Below are positions 51,932 to 62,948 of a stretch of 62,948 nucleotides of DNA, one piece after another. The DNA is from Candidatus Woesearchaeota archaeon (lineage in GTDB: Archaea; Nanobdellota; Nanobdellia; SCGC-AAA011-G17; GW2011-AR18). The translations under genes were made by a program, and so were the position numbers. The stretch is from assembly GCA_964344975.1 (NCBI GenBank), contig CAYFPK010000004.1, forward strand, positions 1 to 62,948. The letters run 5' to 3'. Below the pieces are notes generated by a model. The model did no database searches, had not been told where the DNA came from, and worked only from the letters and a program-made list of their open reading frames with translations. Positions within the stretch are counted from its first letter, which is position 1, and each line of letters starts with the position of its first letter.

Positions 51932-52212
51932 AAAAGGTAACGCAGGCACAGCCACACTTCGACCTAGCCTACCTCAATAGGGGAACCCCACCTGATCCTC
52001 CACCCCGCAACCCTCTAAGCACCAACAGATACACTTAAAGCTGCTGCATTCCTGCCCTGACTTGATTCACGTACATGCCAGCCAAAGAGGACAGGGCTTC
52101 AACGTCACAGATGGGACCTACCGACATAGACAAGCCTCATGCGACCTTCGGCCCCTCTAAAGATCATTCAAGGTAACAACGAAGACCTACCTCGCCAGCC
52201 TAGCCTGCAGGC
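51932..52212 (-). ncRNA. ffs: signal recognition particle RNA (7S/SRP RNA)
   Basis: ORF-free ~280-nt segment that is G-rich on the minus strand. It contains the helix-8 signature GUCAGG-GCA-GGAA-UGC-AGCAGC (GNAR tetraloop closed by GCA/UGC, flanked by the conserved AGCA/CAGG loops). The 5' GCAGGC can pair with the 3' GCCUGC (helix 1). A TATA (TTTTATTAA) lies ~20 nt upstream and a U5 tract at the 3' end. Confidence 0.8.
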
Positions 52213-54909: not shown

Positions 54910-55548
54910 ATGAGATACAGTATACTTTTAGTCTTACTCTTAACCATTCCACTAAGTACAGCAGCAACCATCCAAGGAACAGTCTATGATCTGAGTTTAG
55001 AGCCGCAAACTAATGTTATTGTAGAAATTGACTCAACACCCTTGCAACGCCAAGTGATTAAAGAAGGCACATATGAGTTTACTTTAAGCCCAGGAAGCTA
55101 TACGTTAAGTGTTAAAAGTAACCAAGATGAAACACTCATAGAAGAAAGCATTGAGATTACGCACGATGGCGACTACACCGTTGACTTATTTACCTTATTA
55201 GATTTAAGCGAGTTTGAAGAGTTCGTAGAAGAATCACAAACAGAGCTAGATCTCAATGGTGAAACACCAACATACGTTGTTTGGATCATAGGTGCAGCAG
55301 TAATTGTAGGTGTGATTCTTTTTTTCAAAAGAAAAAAAATAGAGCCAGAAACAAAAAAGCAAGACCCACTAGCAGAAAAAATAATAAAAATTCTAAAAGA
55401 AAACGATGGACGCATGACACAAAAGGAGTTAAGAAAACATTTTCCTTTTTCTGAAGCAAAAATGTCGTTGGCAATTACAGAGTTAGAAGCAAACAAAAAA
55501 ATAAAGAAAATAAAAAAAGGTCGAGGAAATATAATTTCACTCAGCTAA
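54910..55548 (+). CDS. membrane-bound regulator-like protein: signal peptide, carboxypeptidase-regulatory-like beta domain, TM helix, cytoplasmic winged-HTH
   Basis: IQGTVYDLSLEP...GTYEFTLSPGSYTLSV (CarboxypepD_reg-like). TM helix VVWIIGAAVIVGVILFF. C-terminal KILKENDGRMTQKELRKHFPFSEAKMSLAITELEANKKI (MarR/wHTH-like). Confidence 0.65.
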   Translation: MRYSILLVLLLTIPLSTAATIQGTVYDLSLEPQTNVIVEIDSTPLQRQVIKEGTYEFTLSPGSYTLSVKSNQDETLIEESIEITHDGDYTVDLFTLLDLSEFEEFVEESQTELDLNGETPTYVVWIIGAAVIVGVILFFKRKKIEPETKKQDPLAEKIIKILKENDGRMTQKELRKHFPFSEAKMSLAITELEANKKIKKIKKGRGNIISLS

Positions 55549-56145
55549 AGAAGCAACTAACTCTTCTAAAGCAGCAAGTTCATCACCATAACCCATGCGA
55601 ACTTTCACAGCATGATACCCGCCATGATGTCGATACAAGCAGGTACGTAGACCAGAAGGAATTTCTTTTCCTTTCGGAAAACGCCCTAGCAAAGAAATAA
55701 TATTATGCATGGCAGGCTCAACATGAGCCCAATCTTTCCAAAACCCATTTGGTTTTTTACCAGAGGTATAACCCATTTGTTCACGAATAGTAACAAGACC
55801 ACCATGATAATCATAAATTGCCTTATAGAGAGAAGGATTAAATTGGCGAACTTCAACAGCGGTAGGAAAAGAATCTTGACTATCAACTAAAGGCTGTAAT
55901 TCAAAAAACACATTACCAACATCCAACCAATACCCAGAAGGTTTATGAGGTGAAGCAACGCCATAACATTTTCGAACAGCAACCATACCGCCAGGAAACG
56001 CAGAGATTGCATCTTTAAGCGGACGTGAAAGTTTGGAAAGCTCAAAAGAAGAAGGAAAATGACCCAACTCTTCAACAATAGGGTCAAGTCTAGCTACAAG
56101 AGATTCCCACTCATCTAAAGACGCATGCGCTTTCCTATCCATCAC
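55537..56145 (-). CDS. repeat protein C (202 aa): three type-2 repeats plus conserved C-terminal DELAALEELVASL peptide
   Basis: Repeat unit KP.GYW.DW..VE......LGRFP...E....L..A...HGG...V...MGY occurs three times. 4-nt overlap with the upstream gene. Confidence 0.75.
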   Translation of the reverse strand: MMDRKAHASLDEWESLVARLDPIVEELGHFPSSFELSKLSRPLKDAISAFPGGMVAVRKCYGVASPHKPSGYWLDVGNVFFELQPLVDSQDSFPTAVEVRQFNPSLYKAIYDYHGGLVTIREQMGYTSGKKPNGFWKDWAHVEPAMHNIISLLGRFPKGKEIPSGLRTCLYRHHGGYHAVKVRMGYGDELAALEELVASLAE

Positions 56146-57038
56146 CCAAGCACCTCAACCAATTCTTCTAAAGCGGCAAGCTCATCAGAGTAGCCCATGC
56201 GAGCTTTCACAGCAACAAGACCACCGTGATACTTAAAGAGAGCCTGTTGTAATCCATAATCCAATTCTTTCAACTGATTTGTTGTAGGAAAAACACCACC
56301 ACACTGATCAATAATTTCTTTCAAAGCTACCTCAACATGCGCAAAATCGCGCAAAAAACCGTTAGGACGAGAACGTTTTTTTTTCGGAGAGGGAAGAACA
56401 GCATCAACCCAACCATTCCTTCTAAGAAGTTTCATAAAACCACTATCCAAAGAACCGACCTCACCACGACTTTTGCCATCGAGACGCAGAAAGTAATATC
56501 TTTGAGCATCTTCTAAAGTAAAATGAGTGAATCGTTGTTGGCTAGGGGGAAAGACTTCATCAAGAAGTTTTCGGGCCCGAACAGCTTTATAAAAACTACG
56601 TCCATCTGGACCATCCTCTTTCACCTGGCCCCTACTAAGGCCAAAAAAATGTTCCTTACAATATGCCTGAAACATATCAACATCCCAATCAACCCAACGG
56701 TGACGAGTTTCAGGAATAGCCTCCTCAAGTAAACCCCTTCTTTTCAAAACATGATAAAGCTGAGATCCTCCATGAATCTTGTCATACTGCAATTGTCCTC
56801 TTGACAGATGCGAAAAATGCTCAGCATAATGAGTAACTAACTCTTCATCTGTAAATTTTCGCCACTCAACTCCTTTTTTACTTAAAGGTAAAACTGCATC
56901 AGTAAGATCTCTTACAGTAACAGCACGGTAGAATGCACAATCAGCTTCACCAATTTCACTACGACTCATACCAGCAAAATGTTCTGCACAATATTTTTGA
57001 AAATCTTCAACAGTACTCAATCCTCGCCAAGGTTTCAT
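56142..57038 (-). CDS. repeat protein B (298 aa): four type-1 repeats, one type-2 repeat, C-terminal DELAALEELVEVL peptide
   Basis: Type-1 unit W..FT.EDF..YY.EHF.G.SR..V.KD..DG..FY.AV..R.LLDEV.P. Its start overlaps the stop of the upstream gene by 1 nt. Confidence 0.75.
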   Translation of the reverse strand: MKPWRGLSTVEDFQKYCAEHFAGMSRSEIGEADCAFYRAVTVRDLTDAVLPLSKKGVEWRKFTDEELVTHYAEHFSHLSRGQLQYDKIHGGSQLYHVLKRRGLLEEAIPETRHRWVDWDVDMFQAYCKEHFFGLSRGQVKEDGPDGRSFYKAVRARKLLDEVFPPSQQRFTHFTLEDAQRYYFLRLDGKSRGEVGSLDSGFMKLLRRNGWVDAVLPSPKKKRSRPNGFLRDFAHVEVALKEIIDQCGGVFPTTNQLKELDYGLQQALFKYHGGLVAVKARMGYSDELAALEELVEVLG

Positions 57039-58489
57039 TACACAAGCACCTCAACCAATTCTTCAAGAGCTGCAAGTTCATTAGAGACATAACCCATACG
57101 AGCTTTTACACCAATAAGGCCATCATGATGCACAAGAGCAGAAGCAAGGTAACCGGGAAGTTCACGCTTCAAAGGAAATCGTCCAAGCTTACTTATCTCA
57201 GCTTGCATGGCCGGCTCAAGATTATCCCATTCCTTCCAATAACCACTCGGTTTTTGAGAAGCAGAATCAGCATACCCCATATGAGCCTTCACCGCATAAT
57301 ACCCACCGTGACGAGAAAGAGATGAGGCAAGAGAGCTAGAAAAGGCAGCAATTTCACGACTTTTAGGAAACCTACCAAGTTCGAAAACCAAAGGTTCAAT
57401 TTCAGAAACAACATTCTCACGGTCATCCCAATAACCATTGGGCCTACGTAAAGACTCTGGAAAGACTTCATCGGTGAATCCACGAGCAGCAACAGCACGA
57501 TAGAAGGATCTTCCATGAGGAGCATCTTTCTGTACACGAGTACGATGCCATCCAGCAAAATGATCCCCATAATAATTTTTAAAATCTTGCAGAGTAAACT
57601 CATTCCAACTATGTTGAGAGTTAGGCGCAAAGACATCTGCAGAAGAAAAGCCAGCCTTACGCAGAGCCAAATAAAAGGCATTACCACTTTCTAATTGCAT
57701 AACTTGATAAGCGCACAAACCACTATAATATTCTTCATAATACGCCTGAAAATTTTCAAGAGTAAAATCTGAAAACTGGCCCCTCGTTCCTAAAGGAATA
57801 ACAGCATCAAGAAGATTAAGATCAAAAAGTCGTTCATAAAACGCGCGACCATCAGGTGCCTTCTTAACACGAGTTCTATTCATACCAGAAAAATGTGTTT
57901 GATAGTGTTGTTTAAAATCCTCAACAGTAAAGCCATCAAAATCAATTTCACGCTGCAAACGAGTATCACGAGGAGGAAAAATAACACTAATAAGATCACG
58001 ACGAACTAACGCCTTAAAAAAGGCATAACCTCCTGGAACCTCTTTGACTTGAGCAACGGTCATTCCAGAAAAACGTTCCTCATAATAAGAATGAAAGTCT
58101 TCTTCGGTAAAAGAAGACCAACGAACACGCTGAGGTGATGGAAGAACTTCATCTTTGAGCCCTAATCGAGCAACGGTTGAGTAGAAAGCAGAACCAAGCC
58201 CATCAACATCCTTTTGCAGCTCAGTACGACTCATTCCAGCAAGATGTTCTTCGTAGAACTGCTTAAATTCAGCAACACCAAAACCATCCCAGTTGTGATA
58301 ACGACAAGCAGGAAAGATTTCATCAACAAGACCTCGGACACGAACTTCATTATAGAACGTAGAACCTGCTTTCGCTCTATCTTTTTGCACACGAGCACGA
58401 TTCCAACCAGCAAAATGTTCGCCATAATATTCTCTTAAATCTTCATCAGAGAGATTCTTCCAAAATCCATCAGGTCTTCTACCCATCAC
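57038..58489 (-). CDS. repeat protein A (483 aa): six type-1 repeats, two type-2 repeats, C-terminal ELAALEELVEVL peptide
   Basis: Internal periodicity of ~57 aa is visible directly in the translation. 11-nt overlap with the 3' end of the SNF2 gene. Confidence 0.75.
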   Translation of the reverse strand: MMGRRPDGFWKNLSDEDLREYYGEHFAGWNRARVQKDRAKAGSTFYNEVRVRGLVDEIFPACRYHNWDGFGVAEFKQFYEEHLAGMSRTELQKDVDGLGSAFYSTVARLGLKDEVLPSPQRVRWSSFTEEDFHSYYEERFSGMTVAQVKEVPGGYAFFKALVRRDLISVIFPPRDTRLQREIDFDGFTVEDFKQHYQTHFSGMNRTRVKKAPDGRAFYERLFDLNLLDAVIPLGTRGQFSDFTLENFQAYYEEYYSGLCAYQVMQLESGNAFYLALRKAGFSSADVFAPNSQHSWNEFTLQDFKNYYGDHFAGWHRTRVQKDAPHGRSFYRAVAARGFTDEVFPESLRRPNGYWDDRENVVSEIEPLVFELGRFPKSREIAAFSSSLASSLSRHGGYYAVKAHMGYADSASQKPSGYWKEWDNLEPAMQAEISKLGRFPLKRELPGYLASALVHHDGLIGVKARMGYVSNELAALEELVEVLV

Positions 58490-61400
58490 TCAACACCAAC
58501 CCTGATCGCGGATCAATACGCAACCGTCGAGAGCCTGTATAGACTTTTCGAGGAACACGAGCAGAAGAACCAGAAACGCTCGATGCACGAGCAGGAGTAT
58601 AACCAGCGTCAGAAACAGCTTCAGGTAAAGTAGCTGCAGAAGACATTAAAGAAACAACTTCAGAAGGCTCATCCACAGGAGCAACTAAAGCAAAGTAATC
58701 AGCATCAACAGCAGCAACAGCAGAAACTTTTTCAAACAAAGAAAAGGTAGAATGCTCAAGTTTACTCCGGTACGCTTCAGCATGATGTTGACCAGCAGAC
58801 GCCTTCAAACGAGAAAAAAAATCCTTAGAAACGGCATAACGATGCGATTTAACAAGAGGAGTAAATCCAGATTTTTTCATACCATCAAAAAAAGAGCTAG
58901 AAAAACGCCAACCGCCAAGACCAAGTTGCAAATACCCACCAACATCTAAAACTGCATTTGCACCAACAACATAATCACGTACACGTTCTTTATTCTCAAG
59001 CAAACTCACAGATGAGTTATCAACAAAATCAAAAGTACGACCACCAACAACAGACACATCACACATATCACCAACATACTTTAGAGGGTTAGAACTGCGT
59101 GCAGACATCGCTAAAGAAAAGTCACGGTCAACAACCTCAGGAACAGCAAAACCACAATCACGCACAAGAGTGTCTAAATCTAAAAACGCATCATACAAGA
59201 TACCGGGACCTGCCGCATCAGCTAAAACAGTTGCAGGAAAAGTAATCTCTCCTACACGTGCACGTTTCACTAAATCAACAACCTTAGCACGAGCAAGAAC
59301 ATATGGGCTCAAAGAAGAAAAATGTGCACAATAAAGCGCAACAAATTCTTCATCATGCCAAATACCTATAGGGTCTTGCATAATACGTGCACGCAACTCT
59401 TGCGCAACAGTTTGCTCATAAGCATCGGAGGAAATAACAGTAGAACTTCCTTTTTTACGAGTAACAACTCGTTTAGTAACAAAATCATCTAAAGAGTTCA
59501 CAGAAGAATCCGAAAGATCCACAGAAACACCACCACGCCCACGCAAAAACAATTCTTTTAATCGCAACGAGTCCCCGTCACCAGAGATAAGTTTTCGCTC
59601 TTCATCCAAAAGAGCAATACCATCAAGAGCCATCTGATTTTTTTCAGCTTTTTGCGCACGCAAAGAATCAACAGCATAATCAATAGAATCAGCACCATAC
59701 AATAACCGAACGGTAGTTTTCTTTTTTTGACCACGCCGAGCTAAACGAGCAATAGCTTGCTCACGCACAGCAGGACTGTAATGATCATCTAAAAGGTACG
59801 CAGCATTAGCAGCTGAAAAATTTAAAGAAACACCACCAGCACGTGTAGAAACAACAACACCGTCAAGACCGTTTGCTAAACGTTCACCGATTTTGTCACG
59901 AGTAGCATCAGAAGTAGTTCCATCAACAGAAGTCAAATTAAACGATCGACCAAACTGTGCAGATAAAACATCTGCAAGCTCTTCATGCAAAGGACGTAGA
60001 TTTAAAGAAGCAAACGCATCAGATAAACCAAGCTCCTCATATTGTCTACGTAACTGTCGAGCAGCAGCGGTAACATGTTTGGCAAACATGGTTGAAAACA
60101 CAACAAACTTATCACCGCAAGCAACAGGTCCATCATCTGCAGTTAACAATTGATCTAATCGCACATACTTCGCAGAATCAGAGCGAGAAACAGCACCAAC
60201 TAAATCCAGATCAGATAAGATACGAGGATGTACCAACCGCGGATCAAGTACAGCATACCGCATTTGTGTTAACCAGTTAGGTTGACCAGTTTCAAACACA
60301 TAATCAACAATGCGTTGTTGCACCTCAGTTAATGCAACATCATCAATAAGAACCTCTAAAGGAGGCAAATCCATAACATCACAACTGCGACGTCGAATAG
60401 TTCTTTGTCGAACAAACGTATACAAGGAACGCGGATCCCCCTCATAAATCTCTAAAAAGCGAGAAGCAACAGCATCATAATCTAAAAAAGAATGTCCATC
60501 TTCCTCTTGTACAAAATGATCAGGGTGTAACATAAAAAACAATGAAGCATAATCTTTTAACGTATCAGGCATGGGCGTACCGGTAAGCTCAGTCAAGTAC
60601 CCAAGGTCAGGACGAGTCGCAAGAAGTTTAACCGCTGAAGCAACAGTAACAGCACCCTTTTTTGTACGTGTACGCGTATTACGCACATCTTGCACTTCAT
60701 CAATAATAAGATGATCATAACCCAAATCAAGCAACACTTCATACACCTGCTTATCACCAAAGTCAAGTGTTAGCTGATCAAAGTTAGCAAAAACAAAGTC
60801 AGCACCACGCATCTCAGCAAGAAAAGCCGCATCTTTATCTCCATTCACCCAAGCAACAGATTGCACATCAGCAAAGTAACGTGTATCAGAAGGGCCACAA
60901 AGACCATCTCGCCAAGCCTTAACAGAAGCCTTAGGACCCAAAACCAACGTACGACCATACACACCTTTACCTTCGCTTCGCAACTTAGCCTCAATAAGCG
61001 GCTTTAGCAAAGGGGCAATAGCGGTTTTGCCCGTACCACATTCATCAAAGACACCAAAGCGACCTTCTTCCAGGTTATGGAACTGGGCAACGGCCTGATG
61101 AAACGAAGGAAGCACAACAGCCTCACCAGTTGCAGGATCTACAAAGTCAGGGTTTATATGCCCAAGAGAAATCATACGTTCACGAAACGAAAGATAAGAT
61201 CTAAAGGTTGCAAGTTGATCTTCATATAAGTAACGCAAGTTCTCATGCGTTTGCAAAGCAACAAGCTTCTCAAGCTCAGGCAAAGCATCCATAGGATCCT
61301 CTCGCAAATTAAAGATATTGAAAAAATCACGGCGCGCCTTCTCACGAAGAATTAAAAACAAACGACGCGCATCAGCATAAGATGCTTTTTCTTCATCAGA

Positions 61401-61982
61401 AAGTTCATCTTCATTTTTTGCCAAAACAGAAAAATGTCCTGCAGGTAATTCTTGCAACATACGCACATACACAGGAGAAACTTCACCAACAACACGATCT
61501 TCTTTTTCAGAAGATGAACGTTTAGCAGATCGTTTTTCAGAAAAGATAGATTGACTCACACGATATAAATTATCAAAAGTACCAACAAGAGCACGAACCT
61601 CCTCACGAACCTCAGGGATATTCAAAACAAAAGCAGCATACAAATCAGCATCAGTTTCTGTATCAAGCACATCTAAAACAGAAGCATAATCTTGTGAATC
61701 AGAATCTTTTGTACGAGCAAGAATGGTTTCTAACCCTTGACGCGCCTGCACCAAATTAGCTTCAGATAAAAACCAATAGCCATCACGTTGCGCACGGGCA
61801 ACAAAAGATGTATAATGATCATCTTCACCCTTATGTTGCTGATAGAGATGAGCTACAGCCTGCGCTAAAGTTTCTTTACCTTGCGCTGTAAGCATACGTC
61901 GAAGATTAGCAATAGTCACAGCATCATACTTCCCACTAGCAACAAGCGTGGCCAATGCAGATTCGACAGGATCCTTTACCAT
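58479..61982 (-). CDS. SNF2-family helicase/translocase with ~300-aa unique N-terminal region and C-terminal Rossmann SAM-methyltransferase-like domain (1167 aa)
   Basis: SNF2 motifs: LPSFHQ (Q), DECGTGKT (I), LVLGPKASVKAW (Ia), LIIDEVQDVRN (II), LTGTPMPDTLKDYASLFFML (III), KFVVFSTM (IV) and STRAGGVSLNFSAANAAYLLDDHYSPAVREQAIARLARRGQ (V-VI). The C-terminal part has VLADAAGPGIL (motif I-like), VVDRDFS, YVGDMCDV, FDFVDNSS and VLDVGGYLQL. Confidence 0.85.
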   Translation of the reverse strand: MVKDPVESALATLVASGKYDAVTIANLRRMLTAQGKETLAQAVAHLYQQHKGEDDHYTSFVARAQRDGYWFLSEANLVQARQGLETILARTKDSDSQDYASVLDVLDTETDADLYAAFVLNIPEVREEVRALVGTFDNLYRVSQSIFSEKRSAKRSSSEKEDRVVGEVSPVYVRMLQELPAGHFSVLAKNEDELSDEEKASYADARRLFLILREKARRDFFNIFNLREDPMDALPELEKLVALQTHENLRYLYEDQLATFRSYLSFRERMISLGHINPDFVDPATGEAVVLPSFHQAVAQFHNLEEGRFGVFDECGTGKTAIAPLLKPLIEAKLRSEGKGVYGRTLVLGPKASVKAWRDGLCGPSDTRYFADVQSVAWVNGDKDAAFLAEMRGADFVFANFDQLTLDFGDKQVYEVLLDLGYDHLIIDEVQDVRNTRTRTKKGAVTVASAVKLLATRPDLGYLTELTGTPMPDTLKDYASLFFMLHPDHFVQEEDGHSFLDYDAVASRFLEIYEGDPRSLYTFVRQRTIRRRSCDVMDLPPLEVLIDDVALTEVQQRIVDYVFETGQPNWLTQMRYAVLDPRLVHPRILSDLDLVGAVSRSDSAKYVRLDQLLTADDGPVACGDKFVVFSTMFAKHVTAAARQLRRQYEELGLSDAFASLNLRPLHEELADVLSAQFGRSFNLTSVDGTTSDATRDKIGERLANGLDGVVVSTRAGGVSLNFSAANAAYLLDDHYSPAVREQAIARLARRGQKKKTTVRLLYGADSIDYAVDSLRAQKAEKNQMALDGIALLDEERKLISGDGDSLRLKELFLRGRGGVSVDLSDSSVNSLDDFVTKRVVTRKKGSSTVISSDAYEQTVAQELRARIMQDPIGIWHDEEFVALYCAHFSSLSPYVLARAKVVDLVKRARVGEITFPATVLADAAGPGILYDAFLDLDTLVRDCGFAVPEVVDRDFSLAMSARSSNPLKYVGDMCDVSVVGGRTFDFVDNSSVSLLENKERVRDYVVGANAVLDVGGYLQLGLGGWRFSSSFFDGMKKSGFTPLVKSHRYAVSKDFFSRLKASAGQHHAEAYRSKLEHSTFSLFEKVSAVAAVDADYFALVAPVDEPSEVVSLMSSAATLPEAVSDAGYTPARASSVSGSSARVPRKVYTGSRRLRIDPRSGLVLSDG

Positions 61983-61994
61983 ACATAATTCCTA

Positions 61995-62489
61995 TCACCT
62001 CTTGTTTTTGGGAATATAAAAATAACCAACACAATTATTTGGAGTAGACTTCTTTCTTTGTACAACTAAACTAGGATGTACAGGGTTACCATCTAAAGCA
62101 AGAGCACCACCAGCAATTAGGTCATGCCCATCAAAAGAAGCATCAATTTGCAAAGCTTTCGCTAAATTCCCTGGCCCCTGTGCAGTAACAGGCCTATCTT
62201 CAAAAACATAATCAGCAGCAACCAAAGTAACACAACTAGAAACACCACAACTAATGTCAATAAGATAATTACCACGACGGTTACTAACAGAAACAATACC
62301 AGGCCCGTAATCAACAAACTTACCAGAACCTCCCTCCCAGGCAGAAATTTCAACAAGTGTTCCGGTTACAACAGGACCAGCAGAAAATGTCCGAATAAGT
62401 TGCCGTCCAAGCAAATATGCAGCAACAGTGGCAGCATCCTGCCTAAAGAAATCATGCGAAAGGTTCGTTTCAAGGGTTAAAGCAGTCAT
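61995..62489 (-). CDS. DNA-3-methyladenine glycosylase (Mpg/AAG family)-like, short divergent form
   Basis: FFRQDAATVAAYLLGRQLIR, TGTLVEISAWEG (compare ETEAY, with the catalytic Glu kept) and QGPGNLAKALQIDASFDGHDL match the Mpg family order. The central region is shorter than usual. Confidence 0.55.
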   Translation of the reverse strand: MTALTLETNLSHDFFRQDAATVAAYLLGRQLIRTFSAGPVVTGTLVEISAWEGGSGKFVDYGPGIVSVSNRRGNYLIDISCGVSSCVTLVAADYVFEDRPVTAQGPGNLAKALQIDASFDGHDLIAGGALALDGNPVHPSLVVQRKKSTPNNCVGYFYIPKNKR

Positions 62490-62559
62490 AGGGCATCTCT
62501 AGCTAGATTCTAGCATAAATGAGAAGGCCAAAGGCTTTATAAAACTTTACGGAATAAGT

Positions 62560-62603
62560 GCCACTCGCCAGTAACGACTGTGCTTATTCCGCAGAATTTC
62601 TGC
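62560..62603 (+). other. two adjacent hairpins just downstream of a TATA-like element (ctttataaaa, 62534-62543)
   Basis: cggaataag (62560-62568) pairs with cttattccg (62583-62591). gcaga-att-tctgc lies at 62591-62603. Confidence 0.4.
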
Positions 62604-62811
62604 GATACAGAGCCTAATTCGCTAAACTCAACACCTTGGGCTTTACGAATTACTCCAACACGCCAATTGGCGCATTTGTAAACCCTCGATTCTTACTCCA
62701 AAAATCAAGTGCCTACAAGTAATAAGGCACTCCTGCTATATAAGTCCATCCCTTATTTTCTAAGTTTTTGTGACACTAAACAACCCATTCCTATCTTTTT
62801 TTGGCTGAGGT

Positions 62812-62850
62812 GGAGCACAAGCGGAGTACAAATGGAGTACAATTGTACTC
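62812..62850. repeat. three helically phased GGAG(C/T)ACAA direct repeats (11-bp period) ending in a perfect 16-bp palindrome GAGTACAATTGTACTC
   Basis: Repeats start at 62812, 62823 and 62834. The palindrome is at 62835-62850. The region is ORF-free. Confidence 0.7.
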
Positions 62851-62948
62851 ACGATTCTGTGCCAAATGGATGACATATAGTGTAGTAAGGAGCGTGACGT
62901 CCTCCCCGCCCTAAAGGATCTCGCTTCGCTCGATTTGCTCCACTTCGT

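What the first reader, a model, noticed from the sequence alone, without database searches (positions are those of the whole stretch)
55537..62489. Unassigned five-gene operon: Mpg-like glycosylase, SNF2 translocase fused to a methyltransferase-like domain, and three paralogous repeat-array proteins
Five same-strand genes are packed almost without spacers: a 12-nt gap at 61983-61994, an 11-nt overlap at 58479-58489, a 1-nt overlap at 57038 and a 4-nt overlap at 56142-56145. They are almost certainly one translationally coupled unit. The parts are (1) a short Mpg/AAG-like base-excision glycosylase, (2) a 1167-aa protein with a full SNF2 motif set flanked by a ~300-aa unique N-terminus and a C-terminal Rossmann domain with a G-loop (VLADAAGPGIL) and a following acidic beta-2 (VVDRD), and (3) three paralogues made only of ~57-aa repeats. 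I see no nuclease domain, no DPPY/NPPY or PCQ/ENV DNA-methyltransferase motifs, and none of the DUF1998, PLD, PglZ or BrxC-like signatures. It therefore does not fit classical R-M, type ISP, BREX or DISARM as I know them. Pairing a DNA translocase with a base-excising enzyme, a putative methyl donor domain and modular putative nucleic-acid-binding arrays suggests a DNA surveillance, modification or defence module, or a chromatin-remodelling module. The operon sits at the window edge next to a structured non-coding region, so more components may lie beyond 62948.
Basis: partly seen in the sequence, partly recalled or inferred. Interest (0 to 1): 0.85.

Follow-up and report, generated by a model that had tools for sequence, protein, structure and literature searches.

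The report
Glycosylase, SNF2-methyltransferase and adaptor-array module
This is a real, previously undescribed gene module of tiny DPANN archaea that combines a shortened DNA-base-excising enzyme, a DNA motor fused to a methyltransferase, and a variable set of modular, probably DNA-binding, proteins that share one acidic docking motif; it looks like a targeted DNA-marking or defence machine, but nobody has tested its function.

Summary
The five minus-strand genes are at the stated coordinates, with the stated gap and overlaps. The 164-aa protein is a shortened AAG/Mpg-family glycosylase that keeps the catalytic Glu but has a remodelled base pocket. The 1167-aa protein has a family-specific N-terminal domain, a full SNF2 ATPase and a C-terminal class I SAM-methyltransferase fold (AF2 pLDDT 87.5; hundreds of MTase structure matches, nearest Rrp8). 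It is Methyltransf_11-like, not a classical DNA methyltransferase. The three "repeat" proteins use two unit types. Type B belongs to Pfam HNH_repeat; type A has no family. All three end in the same acidic amphipathic tail. I found about 22 distinct loci in Woese-, Pace- and Nanoarchaeota MAGs. Each pairs the SNF2-MTase with 1-8 motif-bearing adaptor genes wherever enough flanking DNA is held. Sixteen also carry the short Mpg-like gene, in varying order and orientation, which indicates functional linkage. Searching from the Mpg-like side leads back to the same module. PADLOC, Pfam, NCBIfam and the literature searches place it in no described system. My best guess is that adaptors recruit the translocase-methyltransferase and the glycosylase then acts on DNA, either as defence or as an epigenetic write/erase system. 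The composition is solid; the function is inferred.

The parts
61995..62489 (-). Short (164 aa) AAG/Mpg-family glycosylase-like protein
   Evidence: Pfam PF02245 scores 39.2 bits against a cutoff of 27. Human AAG matches at E=2e-7. The catalytic Glu (human E125; window E47) is invariant. Y127 is W/F, the H136 loop and a 21-aa helix are deleted, Y159 is not kept and N169 is D. The NCBIfam equivalog cutoffs are not reached (47 vs 116).
61098..61982 (-). Family-specific, mostly helical N-terminal domain of the 1167-aa protein (aa 1-295)
   Evidence: Conserved across the family. No Pfam or PDB sequence match. Function unknown; it is a candidate receptor for the adaptor tails (inference).
59583..61097 (-). 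SNF2 ATPase core (aa ~296-800)
   Evidence: PF00176 and PF00271 pass their gathering scores. The motifs are read directly from the sequence: GTGKT (I), DEVQ (II), LTGTP (III), AGGVSLN (V) and QAIARxxRRGQ (VI). A profile matches PDB SNF2 remodellers such as DDM1, INO80, CHD1 and Rad54 at E about 1e-14.
58689..59408 (-). C-terminal class I SAM-methyltransferase-like domain with helical cap (aa ~859-1098)
   Evidence: AF2 gives pLDDT 87.5 and pTM 0.85 with the seven-strand Rossmann order. Foldseek finds 759 PDB matches at E<=1e-3, and the 50 listed are all SAM methyltransferases; the best TM-score is to Rrp8/nucleomethylin 2zfu. The best sequence hit is also 2zfu, at E=0.022. The G-loop Gly, the DRD at the end of strand 2 and the D of VDNSS are invariant in 17 sequences. 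Distant family members pass the Pfam Methyltransf_11 cutoff.
58479..58688 (-). Low-complexity linker and conserved extreme C-terminal motif (K.YTG..RL...P.G.V) of the 1167-aa protein
   Evidence: Conserved in the close family. Function unknown.
57038..58489 (-). Adaptor protein 1 (483 aa): six A units, two B units and an acidic tail
   Evidence: HMMs I built give repA x6 (E=2e-104) and repB x2 (E=8e-43). The tail is NELAALEELVEVLV.
56142..57038 (-). Adaptor protein 2 (298 aa): four A units, one B unit and an acidic tail
   Evidence: repA x4 and repB x1. AF2 gives pLDDT 79.7 and pTM 0.40, with each unit a bundle of three or four short helices arranged like beads on a string. The tail is DELAALEELVEVLG.
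55537..56145 (-). Adaptor protein 3 (202 aa): three B units and an acidic tail
   Evidence: repB x3, E=2e-61. Pfam HNH_repeat is faint here (14.5 bits), but B-unit arrays in relatives pass its cutoff (40.6 and 33.9 vs 26). The tail is DELAALEELVASLAE.
57041..57082 (-). Acidic amphipathic tail of adaptor 1 (aa 470-483)
   Evidence: The tails are nearly identical among the three window paralogues. The same kind of motif is present on adaptor genes in every locus with enough flanking DNA. The last 16 residues carry a charge of -4 to -5.
56145..56186 (-). Acidic amphipathic tail of adaptor 2 (aa 285-298)
   Evidence: Same evidence as for the adaptor 1 tail.
55540..55581 (-). Acidic amphipathic tail of adaptor 3 (aa 189-202)
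   Evidence: Same evidence as for the adaptor 1 tail.

Best explanation
This is a lineage-specific accessory module of DPANN archaea (Woese-, Pace- and Nanoarchaeota) that most likely acts on DNA and most plausibly restricts foreign or mobile DNA. Shown here: it has three conserved parts. First, 1-8 paralogous adaptor proteins, whose bodies are interchangeable small helical modules (type A units, HNH_repeat-type B units, and elsewhere C units, HTH_28 or RHH). Each adaptor ends, or occasionally begins, with the same short acidic amphipathic motif. Second, an SNF2 translocase fused to a unique N-terminal domain and a C-terminal class I SAM methyltransferase whose cofactor-binding residues are conserved. 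Third, in most loci, a compact AAG/Mpg-type glycosylase with the catalytic Glu intact but an altered base pocket. Inferred: the adaptor bodies recognise targets (DNA sequences, judging by HNH_repeat, HTH and RHH homology). The shared motif docks them onto the SNF2-MTase. ATP-driven translocation or DNA distortion gives the methyltransferase access to a base. The dedicated glycosylase then removes a base, either the one just methylated or a foreign modified one, leaving abasic sites that inactivate the target DNA. The expansion and rapid divergence of the adaptors would supply target diversity.
For: Composition. Linkage: about 22 distinct loci carry the SNF2-MTase next to motif-bearing adaptor genes, and 16 also carry the Mpg-like gene. 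That gene is upstream on the same strand, divergent (L024, L026, L029, L039), downstream (L028, L036) or 2.5 kb away (L037, L040). The reciprocal search from the Mpg-like side reaches the SNF2-MTase in all four contexts with enough flank: L029, L037, L039 and L040. A remote SNF2 (23% identity) with a canonical Methyltransf_11 domain (55 bits) also sits beside an Mpg-domain protein (L018). Adaptor bodies include bona fide DNA-binding folds: HNH_repeat above cutoff, HTH_28 at 41.5 bits and RHH_1 at 23.7 bits. The motif is shared within genomes and diverges between genomes, as expected for a docking peptide that co-evolves with its receptor. The distribution is accessory and island-like. The MTase-domain family has only 105 representatives at E<=1e-3 among 1.84 billion. 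Neighbourhoods differ in every genome. Toxin-antitoxin genes are nearby in L007, L008, L029 and L037. A Dcm plus T4SS-like module abuts the operon in two independent contigs. SNF2 ATPases recur in known defence systems, and the weak hits here are to DpdE, ZorD, DrmD and BrxH models.
Against: There is no experiment. No nuclease or other canonical effector is present. The methyltransferase is of the Methyltransf_11/Rrp8 type, whose members usually methylate small molecules, proteins or RNA, and it lacks the DPPY and PCQ/ENV motifs, so a DNA substrate is unproven. The type A units have no known homologue, and the window's 483-aa adaptor body is slightly acidic (net -2, pI 6.6), so DNA binding is not assured for A units. 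Six of the 22 loci show no Mpg-like gene in the DNA held, although several of those are truncated contigs. PADLOC finds no defence-system match beyond the generic SNF2 lobe. Most neighbours in the window are housekeeping genes, and base composition is not anomalous.
Confidence: 0.4

Rival explanations
1. It is an endogenous epigenetic or chromatin-regulation module with writer, eraser and reader parts. Sequence-specific adaptor proteins act as transcription-factor-like recruiters. Their acidic tails bring the SNF2 remodeller-methyltransferase to chosen chromosomal sites, and the Mpg-like glycosylase removes the mark. This would parallel SNF2-coupled DNA methylation (Dnmt5, DDM1/LSH) and glycosylase-based demethylation (DME/ROS1) in eukaryotes.
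For: The architecture is the same one cited for the best explanation. The short acidic-hydrophobic motif on DNA-binding proteins resembles activator-type recruitment. This analogy, and the comparisons with Dnmt5, JBP2 and DME/ROS1, come from my own knowledge of those proteins. Two loci add a putative 2OG-Fe(II) oxygenase-like gene between or next to the core genes, which fits base-modification chemistry. The window locus lies among housekeeping genes with normal composition.
Against: The phyletic distribution is patchy and the chromosomal context is not conserved. Adaptor copy number changes rapidly, from 1 to 8. Toxin-antitoxin and mobile-element genes are recurrent neighbours. All of this is more typical of accessory or conflict systems. 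The methyltransferase class is not a known DNA methyltransferase class.
Confidence: 0.22
2. It is cargo of a mobile genetic element (an integrative, conjugative-like element) and serves the element, for example in anti-restriction, DNA processing or establishment after transfer. The large SNF2-methylase proteins of bacterial conjugative elements would be the analogue.
For: In the same population, an alternative contig joins the operon, 404 nt upstream of the Mpg-like gene, to a module encoding a C5 DNA methyltransferase, a TrbC/VirB2-like pilin, a polytopic membrane protein and a large protein cut by the contig end. An independent JGI contig has the same arrangement next to a 41%-identical Mpg-like gene, and there the large protein hits TraC-like/P-loop_TraG families. 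The SNF2 part hits PHROG 62, a family of large phage helicases, at 112 bits.
Against: The T4SS-like genes are absent from every other locus held. The window version lacks them, and most loci sit among housekeeping genes. No integrase or tRNA lies nearby in the window.
Confidence: 0.13
3. The module does not modify DNA bases at all. The methyltransferase methylates a protein or RNA, for instance the adaptors, a chromatin protein or RNA polymerase. The SNF2 ATPase acts as a RapA/Mot1-like protein-displacing motor in transcription or repair, and the Mpg-like protein is an ordinary base-excision repair enzyme that happens to be co-expressed.
For: The nearest methyltransferase relatives by sequence and structure are Rrp8 (rRNA m1A), CheR (protein) and small-molecule methyltransferases. 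Motif IV is VDNSS, not DPPY.
Against: The Mpg-like subfamily is shortened, has a remodelled pocket, and is found essentially only beside this SNF2-MTase, even after gene-order shuffling. That argues for a dedicated partner, not a generic repair gene.
Confidence: 0.2

Closest known systems
Human AAG / bacterial Mpg (Pfam Pur_DNA_glyco, PF02245)
   Same: Same fold family by sequence. The catalytic Glu and the GPG(N/K)L helix are conserved.
   Different: It is 30-50 residues shorter. The H136 loop and a 21-residue helix are deleted, Y159 is lost, N169 is replaced by an invariant Asp, and the NCBIfam equivalog cutoffs are not reached. It is dedicated to one gene module instead of being a stand-alone repair gene.
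SNF2 ATPases fused to a DNA base-modifying domain: fungal Dnmt5 (SNF2 + C5-MTase) and kinetoplastid JBP2 (SNF2 + TET/JBP dioxygenase). Comparison from my own knowledge.
   Same: One polypeptide combines an SNF2 motor with a SAM- or 2OG-dependent modifying enzyme, so the concept of ATP-coupled access to a base is shared.
   Different: Here the enzyme domain is Methyltransf_11/Rrp8-like. No homology outside the SNF2 core was detected. The protein is archaeal and is partnered with a glycosylase and adaptor arrays.
SNF2-containing prokaryotic defence systems: DISARM (DrmD + DrmMI/II), Dpd (DpdE), Zorya (ZorD), BREX-associated BrxH, Hma (HmaA)
   Same: All use an SNF2-type ATPase, some together with a methyltransferase. 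The context is accessory and island-like. PADLOC gives weak hits to these models, 15-44 bits for those at E<=0.001.
   Different: The hits cover only the conserved helicase C-lobe. DUF1998 (DrmB), PLD (DrmC), PglZ, BrxC, ZorA/B, DpdA/B/C and Mrr domains are all absent. The methyltransferase class is different, and a glycosylase and adaptor arrays are present.
Rrp8 / nucleomethylin (Methyltransf_8; PDB 2zfu)
   Same: It is the best sequence match (E=0.022) and the best TM-score (TMt 0.61) for the C-terminal domain. The similarity is in the motif IV to post-IV region.
   Different: The similarity is weak (19% identity). Rrp8 is a stand-alone rRNA m1A methyltransferase. No Pfam methyltransferase model reaches E<=0.1 on the window protein itself.
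Pfam HNH_repeat (PF18780, homing endonuclease associated repeat)
   Same: Type B units of relatives pass the family's gathering score. The window's B units belong to the same unit family according to the HMM I built.
   Different: No HNH or other nuclease domain is attached. The units are arrayed with other unit types and end in a docking-like tail. The window's own proteins stay below the Pfam cutoff.

Membership tests
AAG/Mpg glycosylase (Pur_DNA_glyco) | Significant match to the family profile | tested here: met
   PF02245 scores 39.2 bits against a cutoff of 27. Human AAG matches at E=2e-7. NCBIfam TIGR00567 scores 47 against a cutoff of 116, so the protein is not an equivalog.
AAG/Mpg glycosylase (Pur_DNA_glyco) | Catalytic general-base Glu (human E125) | tested here: met
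   Invariant Glu (window E47) in eight module-linked homologues aligned with human AAG.
AAG/Mpg glycosylase (Pur_DNA_glyco) | Lesion-pocket residues Y127, H136, Y159 and N169, and intercalating Y162 (residue roles from my own knowledge of AAG structures) | tested here: not met
   Y127 is W/F, the H136 segment is deleted, Y159 is Ser or variable, and N169 is an invariant Asp. Position 162 is Arg in the window and Y/F/H in relatives. The pocket is therefore remodelled and the substrate probably differs.
AAG/Mpg glycosylase (Pur_DNA_glyco) | Glycosylase activity on alkylated or deaminated purines | not testable with these tools
   This needs an enzyme assay.
SNF2 family ATPase | SNF2 N-lobe and helicase C-lobe profiles, and motifs I-VI | tested here: met
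   PF00176 scores 40.9 and PF00271 scores 33.9 bits, both above cutoff. The motifs are read in the sequence. PDB SNF2 remodellers match at E about 1e-14.
Class I SAM-dependent methyltransferase | Seven-strand Rossmann-like fold | tested here: met
   AF2 pLDDT 87.5 with the expected strand order. Foldseek finds 759 PDB matches at E<=1e-3, and the 50 listed are all SAM methyltransferases.
Class I SAM-dependent methyltransferase | Gly-rich motif I and an acidic residue at the end of strand 2 | tested here: met
   The Gly of DAAGPG and the two Asp of DRD are invariant in 17 family members and sit at strand 1 plus its loop and at strand 2 of the model.
Class I SAM-dependent methyltransferase | Match to a curated methyltransferase sequence profile | tested here: inconclusive
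   No Pfam methyltransferase hit at E<=0.1 on the window protein. Distant family members pass Methyltransf_11 (27.8, 28.4 and 55.2 bits against 21.2).
DNA methyltransferase (N6A/N4C or C5) | (D/N/S)PP(Y/F/W) motif, or PCQ plus ENV motifs | tested here: not met
   Motif IV is VDNSS. No DNA methyltransferase appears among the 50 structural matches listed or in Pfam.
DISARM | DrmA helicase, DrmB (DUF1998) and DrmC (PLD) with a DNA methyltransferase | tested here: not met
   PADLOC gives only DrmD C-lobe hits of 10.6-29.5 bits, and the other four proteins have no hits.
BREX / Zorya / Dpd / Hma | PglZ with BrxC and PglX; ZorA/B; DpdA/B/C; HmaB/C | tested here: not met
   No PADLOC or Pfam hit to any of these. 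Only the generic SNF2 lobe matches the DpdE, ZorD, BrxH and HmaA models.
HNH_repeat (PF18780) | Profile match above the gathering score | tested here: inconclusive
   The window's 202-aa protein scores 14.5 bits against a cutoff of 26. B-unit arrays in relatives score 40.6 and 33.9, and the repB HMM I built unites them (window E=2e-61).
HNH homing endonuclease | HNH nuclease domain | tested here: not met
   No nuclease domain in any of the five proteins.

The most novel reading that the evidence does not exclude
It is a programmable 'mark-and-excise' DNA-targeting machine. Interchangeable DNA-binding adaptors dock through a common acidic peptide onto an SNF2 motor. The motor's fused Rrp8-like methyltransferase alkylates a purine in the distorted duplex. 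A co-evolved mini-AAG then excises exactly that methylated base, producing targeted abasic sites. This would be a restriction mechanism, or a write/erase epigenetic switch, with no nuclease and with recruitment logic like that of eukaryotic activators and remodellers.
Probability: 0.15. Interest if true: 0.92.

Novelty: new variant of a known kind. Interest (0 to 1): 0.72.

Why it matters
If the module is a defence or DNA-marking system, it adds a new architecture: a glycosylase effector, an ATP-driven non-canonical methyltransferase and swappable adaptors with a common docking peptide. It would add to the few systems in which SNF2 motors are coupled to base modification. It comes from DPANN archaea, whose virus and host-interaction biology is almost unknown. 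The shared docking motif on diverse DNA-binding bodies would be a natural plug-and-play recruitment system of possible engineering interest. The mini-AAG with an altered pocket may recognise a new lesion or modified base. Even if the function turns out to be something else, the tight three-way linkage gives a testable hypothesis for more than 100 currently unannotated protein clusters.

Tried and rejected
- R-M, type ISP, BREX, DISARM, Zorya, Dpd and Hma membership: rejected. PADLOC, Pfam and NCBIfam hit only the generic SNF2 lobe.
- Repeat-protein structure: Foldseek gave nothing significant against the PDB. Against BFVD it gave only weak hits at E>=0.04, to phage endonuclease-like and HTH proteins.
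- Common origin of A and B units: hhalign was not significant (probability 6%).
- N-terminal domain of the SNF2 protein: no PDB sequence match.
- Word-based homologue search with the 483-aa protein: only 4 hits. The repeat proteins had to be found by synteny and with HMMs I built.
- Structured upstream leader as part of the system: rejected. It has no Rfam hit and no counterpart in other loci.
- T4SS/Dcm module as a conserved component: rejected. It is absent from all other loci held.
- Putative 2OG-Fe(II) oxygenase in L037/L032 and L018: support is only motif-level and weak at profile level, and the gene is not in the window.
- Literature searches for PF18780, SNF2 with DPANN or Woesearchaeota, and glycosylase with SNF2 and anti-phage: nothing relevant.
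- Strongly basic charge as support for DNA binding: not found for the window's adaptors.

Full report
**Observation**

The window is archaeal: it carries an Archaea_SRP RNA at 51940-52210 and no tRNA.
- 61995-62489 (164 aa)
- 58479-61982 (1167 aa)
- 57038-58489 (483 aa)
- 56142-57038 (298 aa)
- 55537-56145 (202 aa)

They are separated by a 12-nt gap and by overlaps of 11, 1 and 4 nt. Base composition is not anomalous. The same five genes occur, identical, on several contigs assembled from runs ERR2281800-803.

**The 164-aa protein**

- It passes the Pfam Pur_DNA_glyco gathering score (39.2 vs 27) and matches human AAG at E=2e-7.
- It stays far below the NCBIfam Mpg equivalog cutoffs.
- I aligned it with seven module-linked homologues and human AAG. 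The catalytic Glu (human E125, window E47) is invariant, and the GPGxL helix is nearly so.
- The base pocket is remodelled: Y127 is W/F, the H136 loop and a 21-residue helix are deleted, Y159 is not kept, and N169 is an invariant Asp.
- It is therefore a compact AAG-superfamily member that is probably catalytic but has a different substrate.

**The 1167-aa protein**

- SNF2-rel_dom and Helicase_C pass their cutoffs. Motifs I-VI are readable in the sequence. A family profile matches PDB remodellers at about 1e-14.
- The N-terminal ~295 residues are conserved in the family but match nothing.
- I modelled the C-terminal region (aa 845-1105) from a 9-sequence alignment. The result was pLDDT 87.5 and pTM 0.85, with the classical class I methyltransferase strand order.
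- Foldseek found 759 PDB matches at E<=1e-3. The 50 listed are all SAM methyltransferases. None of these is a DNA methyltransferase, and the best TM-score is to Rrp8/nucleomethylin 2zfu. The best sequence hit is also 2zfu, at E=0.022.
- In a 17-sequence alignment at about 33% identity, the G-loop Gly, both Asp of DRD and the Asp of VDNSS are invariant. This argues for an active cofactor site.
- More distant family members pass Pfam Methyltransf_11 while still fused to SNF2.
- Motif IV is VDNSS, not DPPY or PCQ, so the enzyme is not a classical DNA methyltransferase.

**The three downstream proteins**

They are built from two different units plus a tail.
- Type A units have a core of about 47-52 aa: W..FT.EDF..YY..HF.GMSR.EV.KD...FY..V..RGL.DEVFP.
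- Type B units are about 58 aa: P.GYW....NV...L..II..LGRFP...EI......L...I..YHGG....K...GY.
- The arrangements are 6A+2B, 4A+1B and 3B.
- All three proteins end in the same acidic amphipathic tail, (D/N)ELAALEELV(E/A)(V/S)L.
- B-unit arrays in relatives pass the Pfam HNH_repeat cutoff (40.6 and 33.9 vs 26). The window's own proteins do not.
- Type A has no known family. A and B are not significantly related by hhalign.
- AF2 of the 298-aa protein (pLDDT 79.7, pTM 0.40) shows each unit as three or four short helices strung like beads. Structure searches were uninformative.

**Conservation**

- A search of 5.8 billion proteins found only eight full-length relatives of the SNF2-MTase, at 46-52% identity.
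- A profile of the methyltransferase domain, run against 1.84 billion representatives, found only 105 hits at E<=1e-3. Most lie toward the C-terminal end of proteins of about 850-1250 aa.
- Two scans of species-representative genomes recovered loci from Woese-, Pace- and Nanoarchaeota MAGs.
- I built HMMs for the Mpg-like protein, the A and B units and the SNF2-MTase, and ran them on all ORFs of the fetched loci.
- Among about 22 distinct loci, every one with enough flanking DNA has 1-8 adaptor genes next to the SNF2-MTase. Sixteen also have the Mpg-like gene.
- Its position varies: upstream on the same strand, divergent (L024, L026, L029, L039), downstream (L028, L036), or about 2.5 kb away on the other strand (L037, L040).
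- The reverse search, from the Mpg-like profile, gave about 45 short Mpg-like proteins. All four contexts with enough flank held the SNF2-MTase (L029, L037, L039, L040).
- A remote locus (L018; SNF2 only 23% identical) still pairs an Mpg-domain protein with an SNF2 that carries a canonical Methyltransf_11 domain (55 bits).
- Association that survives gene-order shuffling and this much divergence is strong evidence for functional linkage.

**The adaptors**

- Across loci the bodies are interchangeable. They use A units, B units, a third unit type ('C'...ERSWY..G..W...F.F), true HTH_28/HTH_23 domains (41.5 and 32.2 bits), and even a 62-aa RHH_1 protein.
- What they share is the terminal acidic amphipathic motif. 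It reads ELxxLxxIVEE... in the window's clade and LLExY(V/I)GG(E/N).(D/E) in the more distant clade.
- In L009 the motif sits at the N-terminus, and in L010, L025 and P0024 it appears at both ends.
- Motifs are nearly identical within a genome and diverge between genomes.
- I infer a docking peptide that co-evolves with a receptor, most simply the SNF2-MTase itself.
- The tails carry a charge of -3 to -5. The bodies range from slightly acidic (window 483-aa body, net -2) to very basic (C-unit arrays, +25). DNA binding is therefore inferred from homology for B, HTH and RHH modules and remains open for A units.

**Context**

- Neighbouring genes differ in every genome.
- Toxin-antitoxin pairs are close by in L007, L008, L029 and L037.
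- In the window's own population there are two versions of the upstream flank. They are identical up to 404 nt upstream of the Mpg-like ATG (window ~62893) and unrelated beyond that.
- The alternative version (L001, L003) runs into a module encoding a C5 DNA methyltransferase (PPCQ and ENV motifs), a TrbC/VirB2-like pilin, a polytopic membrane protein and a large protein cut by the contig end.
- An independent JGI contig shows the same arrangement next to a 41%-identical Mpg-like gene. There the large protein hits TraC-like/P-loop_TraG families.
- None of the other loci has this module.
- PADLOC, NCBIfam and PHROGs return only generic SNF2 hits. Full-text searches found no description of such a module.

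**Interpretation**

- Shown: there is a conserved, lineage-restricted, patchily distributed module of three linked parts.
- Inferred mechanism: adaptors select targets and dock onto the SNF2-MTase through the shared motif. The motor gives the methyltransferase access to its substrate. The dedicated mini-AAG acts on a base.
- I rank restriction of foreign or mobile DNA first (0.40). The reasons are the accessory distribution, the variable context with toxin-antitoxin and mobile neighbours, the adaptor expansion and the precedent of SNF2 ATPases in defence.
- The rivals are an endogenous epigenetic write/erase system (0.22), a non-DNA methyltransferase substrate with a RapA/Mot1-like motor (0.20), and mobile-element cargo (0.13).
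- The non-canonical methyltransferase class and the absence of any nuclease are the main weaknesses of all the DNA-modification readings.

**Novelty**

Every domain family is known, and SNF2-plus-methyltransferase modules exist (DISARM, and Dnmt5 and JBP2 as fusions). This particular combination matches none of them on any defining accessory component: a dedicated mini-AAG, an SNF2 fused to a Methyltransf_11/Rrp8-like domain, and multiple adaptors with a common docking motif. I rate it a new variant of a known kind. A 'mark-and-excise' mechanism, if real, would be categorically new.

Noticed in passing
window 62490-62948, junction at ~62893; L001 1-6832: Two population variants exist upstream of the operon. 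They are identical for 404 nt upstream of the Mpg-like ATG and unrelated beyond that. The L001/L003 version continues into a divergent module: a C5 DNA methyltransferase (PPCQ and ENV motifs), a 148-aa protein, a TrbC/VirB2-like pilin, a 702-aa polytopic membrane protein and a 981-aa protein cut by the contig end. The window/L002 version continues with GC-rich, palindrome-like sequence. This is probably a mobile-element or rearrangement junction. An independent JGI contig has the same Dcm/T4SS-like arrangement next to an Mpg-like gene, and there the large protein hits TraC-like/P-loop_TraG families.
   Followed up: partly
window 62545-62780 (minus strand): The 5' leader and intergenic region upstream of the Mpg-like gene folds into a multi-hairpin structure of -77.4 kcal/mol against -55.8 for shuffles (z=-4.8). 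It has no Rfam match even at E<=1 and no counterpart upstream of the module in other genomes. A TTTATAAA box lies about 55 nt upstream of the ATG.
   Followed up: partly
L037 2204-2833 (-), identical copy in L032 3366-4010; L018 5509-6225 (+): A 209-238-aa protein with conserved PxHxD...HxVSN...DRYA motifs (a 2OG-Fe(II) oxygenase-like facial triad plus Arg) sits directly next to the SNF2-MTase in two distant versions of the module. In L018 it lies between the Mpg-domain gene and the SNF2-MTase. Profile support is weak: DIOX_N at E=0.058 and PDB 3on7 at E=0.15.
   Followed up: partly
L037 8158-8346 (-); L040 7960-8142 (-): A 60-62-aa ribbon-helix-helix protein (RHH_1, 23.7 bits against a cutoff of 20.5) ends in the same acidic GGED-type motif as the large adaptors. 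This suggests that any DNA-binding fold can be plugged into the system.
   Followed up: partly
window 58479-58688 (C-terminus of the 1167-aa protein): After a low-complexity linker, the SNF2-MTase ends in a short motif conserved across the close family (K.YTG..RL...P.G.V). It may be a linear interaction motif. I did not investigate it.
   Followed up: no
L007 3766-7830: The neighbouring gyrase A gene in one carrier genome contains an intein (Intein_splicing between two DNA_topoisoIV hits). L029 also shows an intein-like insertion in a topoisomerase-like ORF.
   Followed up: no
record titles of L013/L016/L028/L031: Several MAGs carrying the module are titled 'uncultured Methanosarcinales archaeon', and one is titled 'Acidobacteriota bacterium' (L026). 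Their module proteins are 33-50% identical to Woesearchaeota ones and the loci look DPANN-like. These are probably mislabelled or misbinned records.
   Followed up: no
window 54910-55548 (+): The convergent downstream gene (212 aa; a membrane protein with CarboxypepD_reg and DUF7343 winged-helix hits) overlaps the 3' end of the last adaptor gene by 12 nt. No intergenic terminator separates the two transcription units.
   Followed up: no
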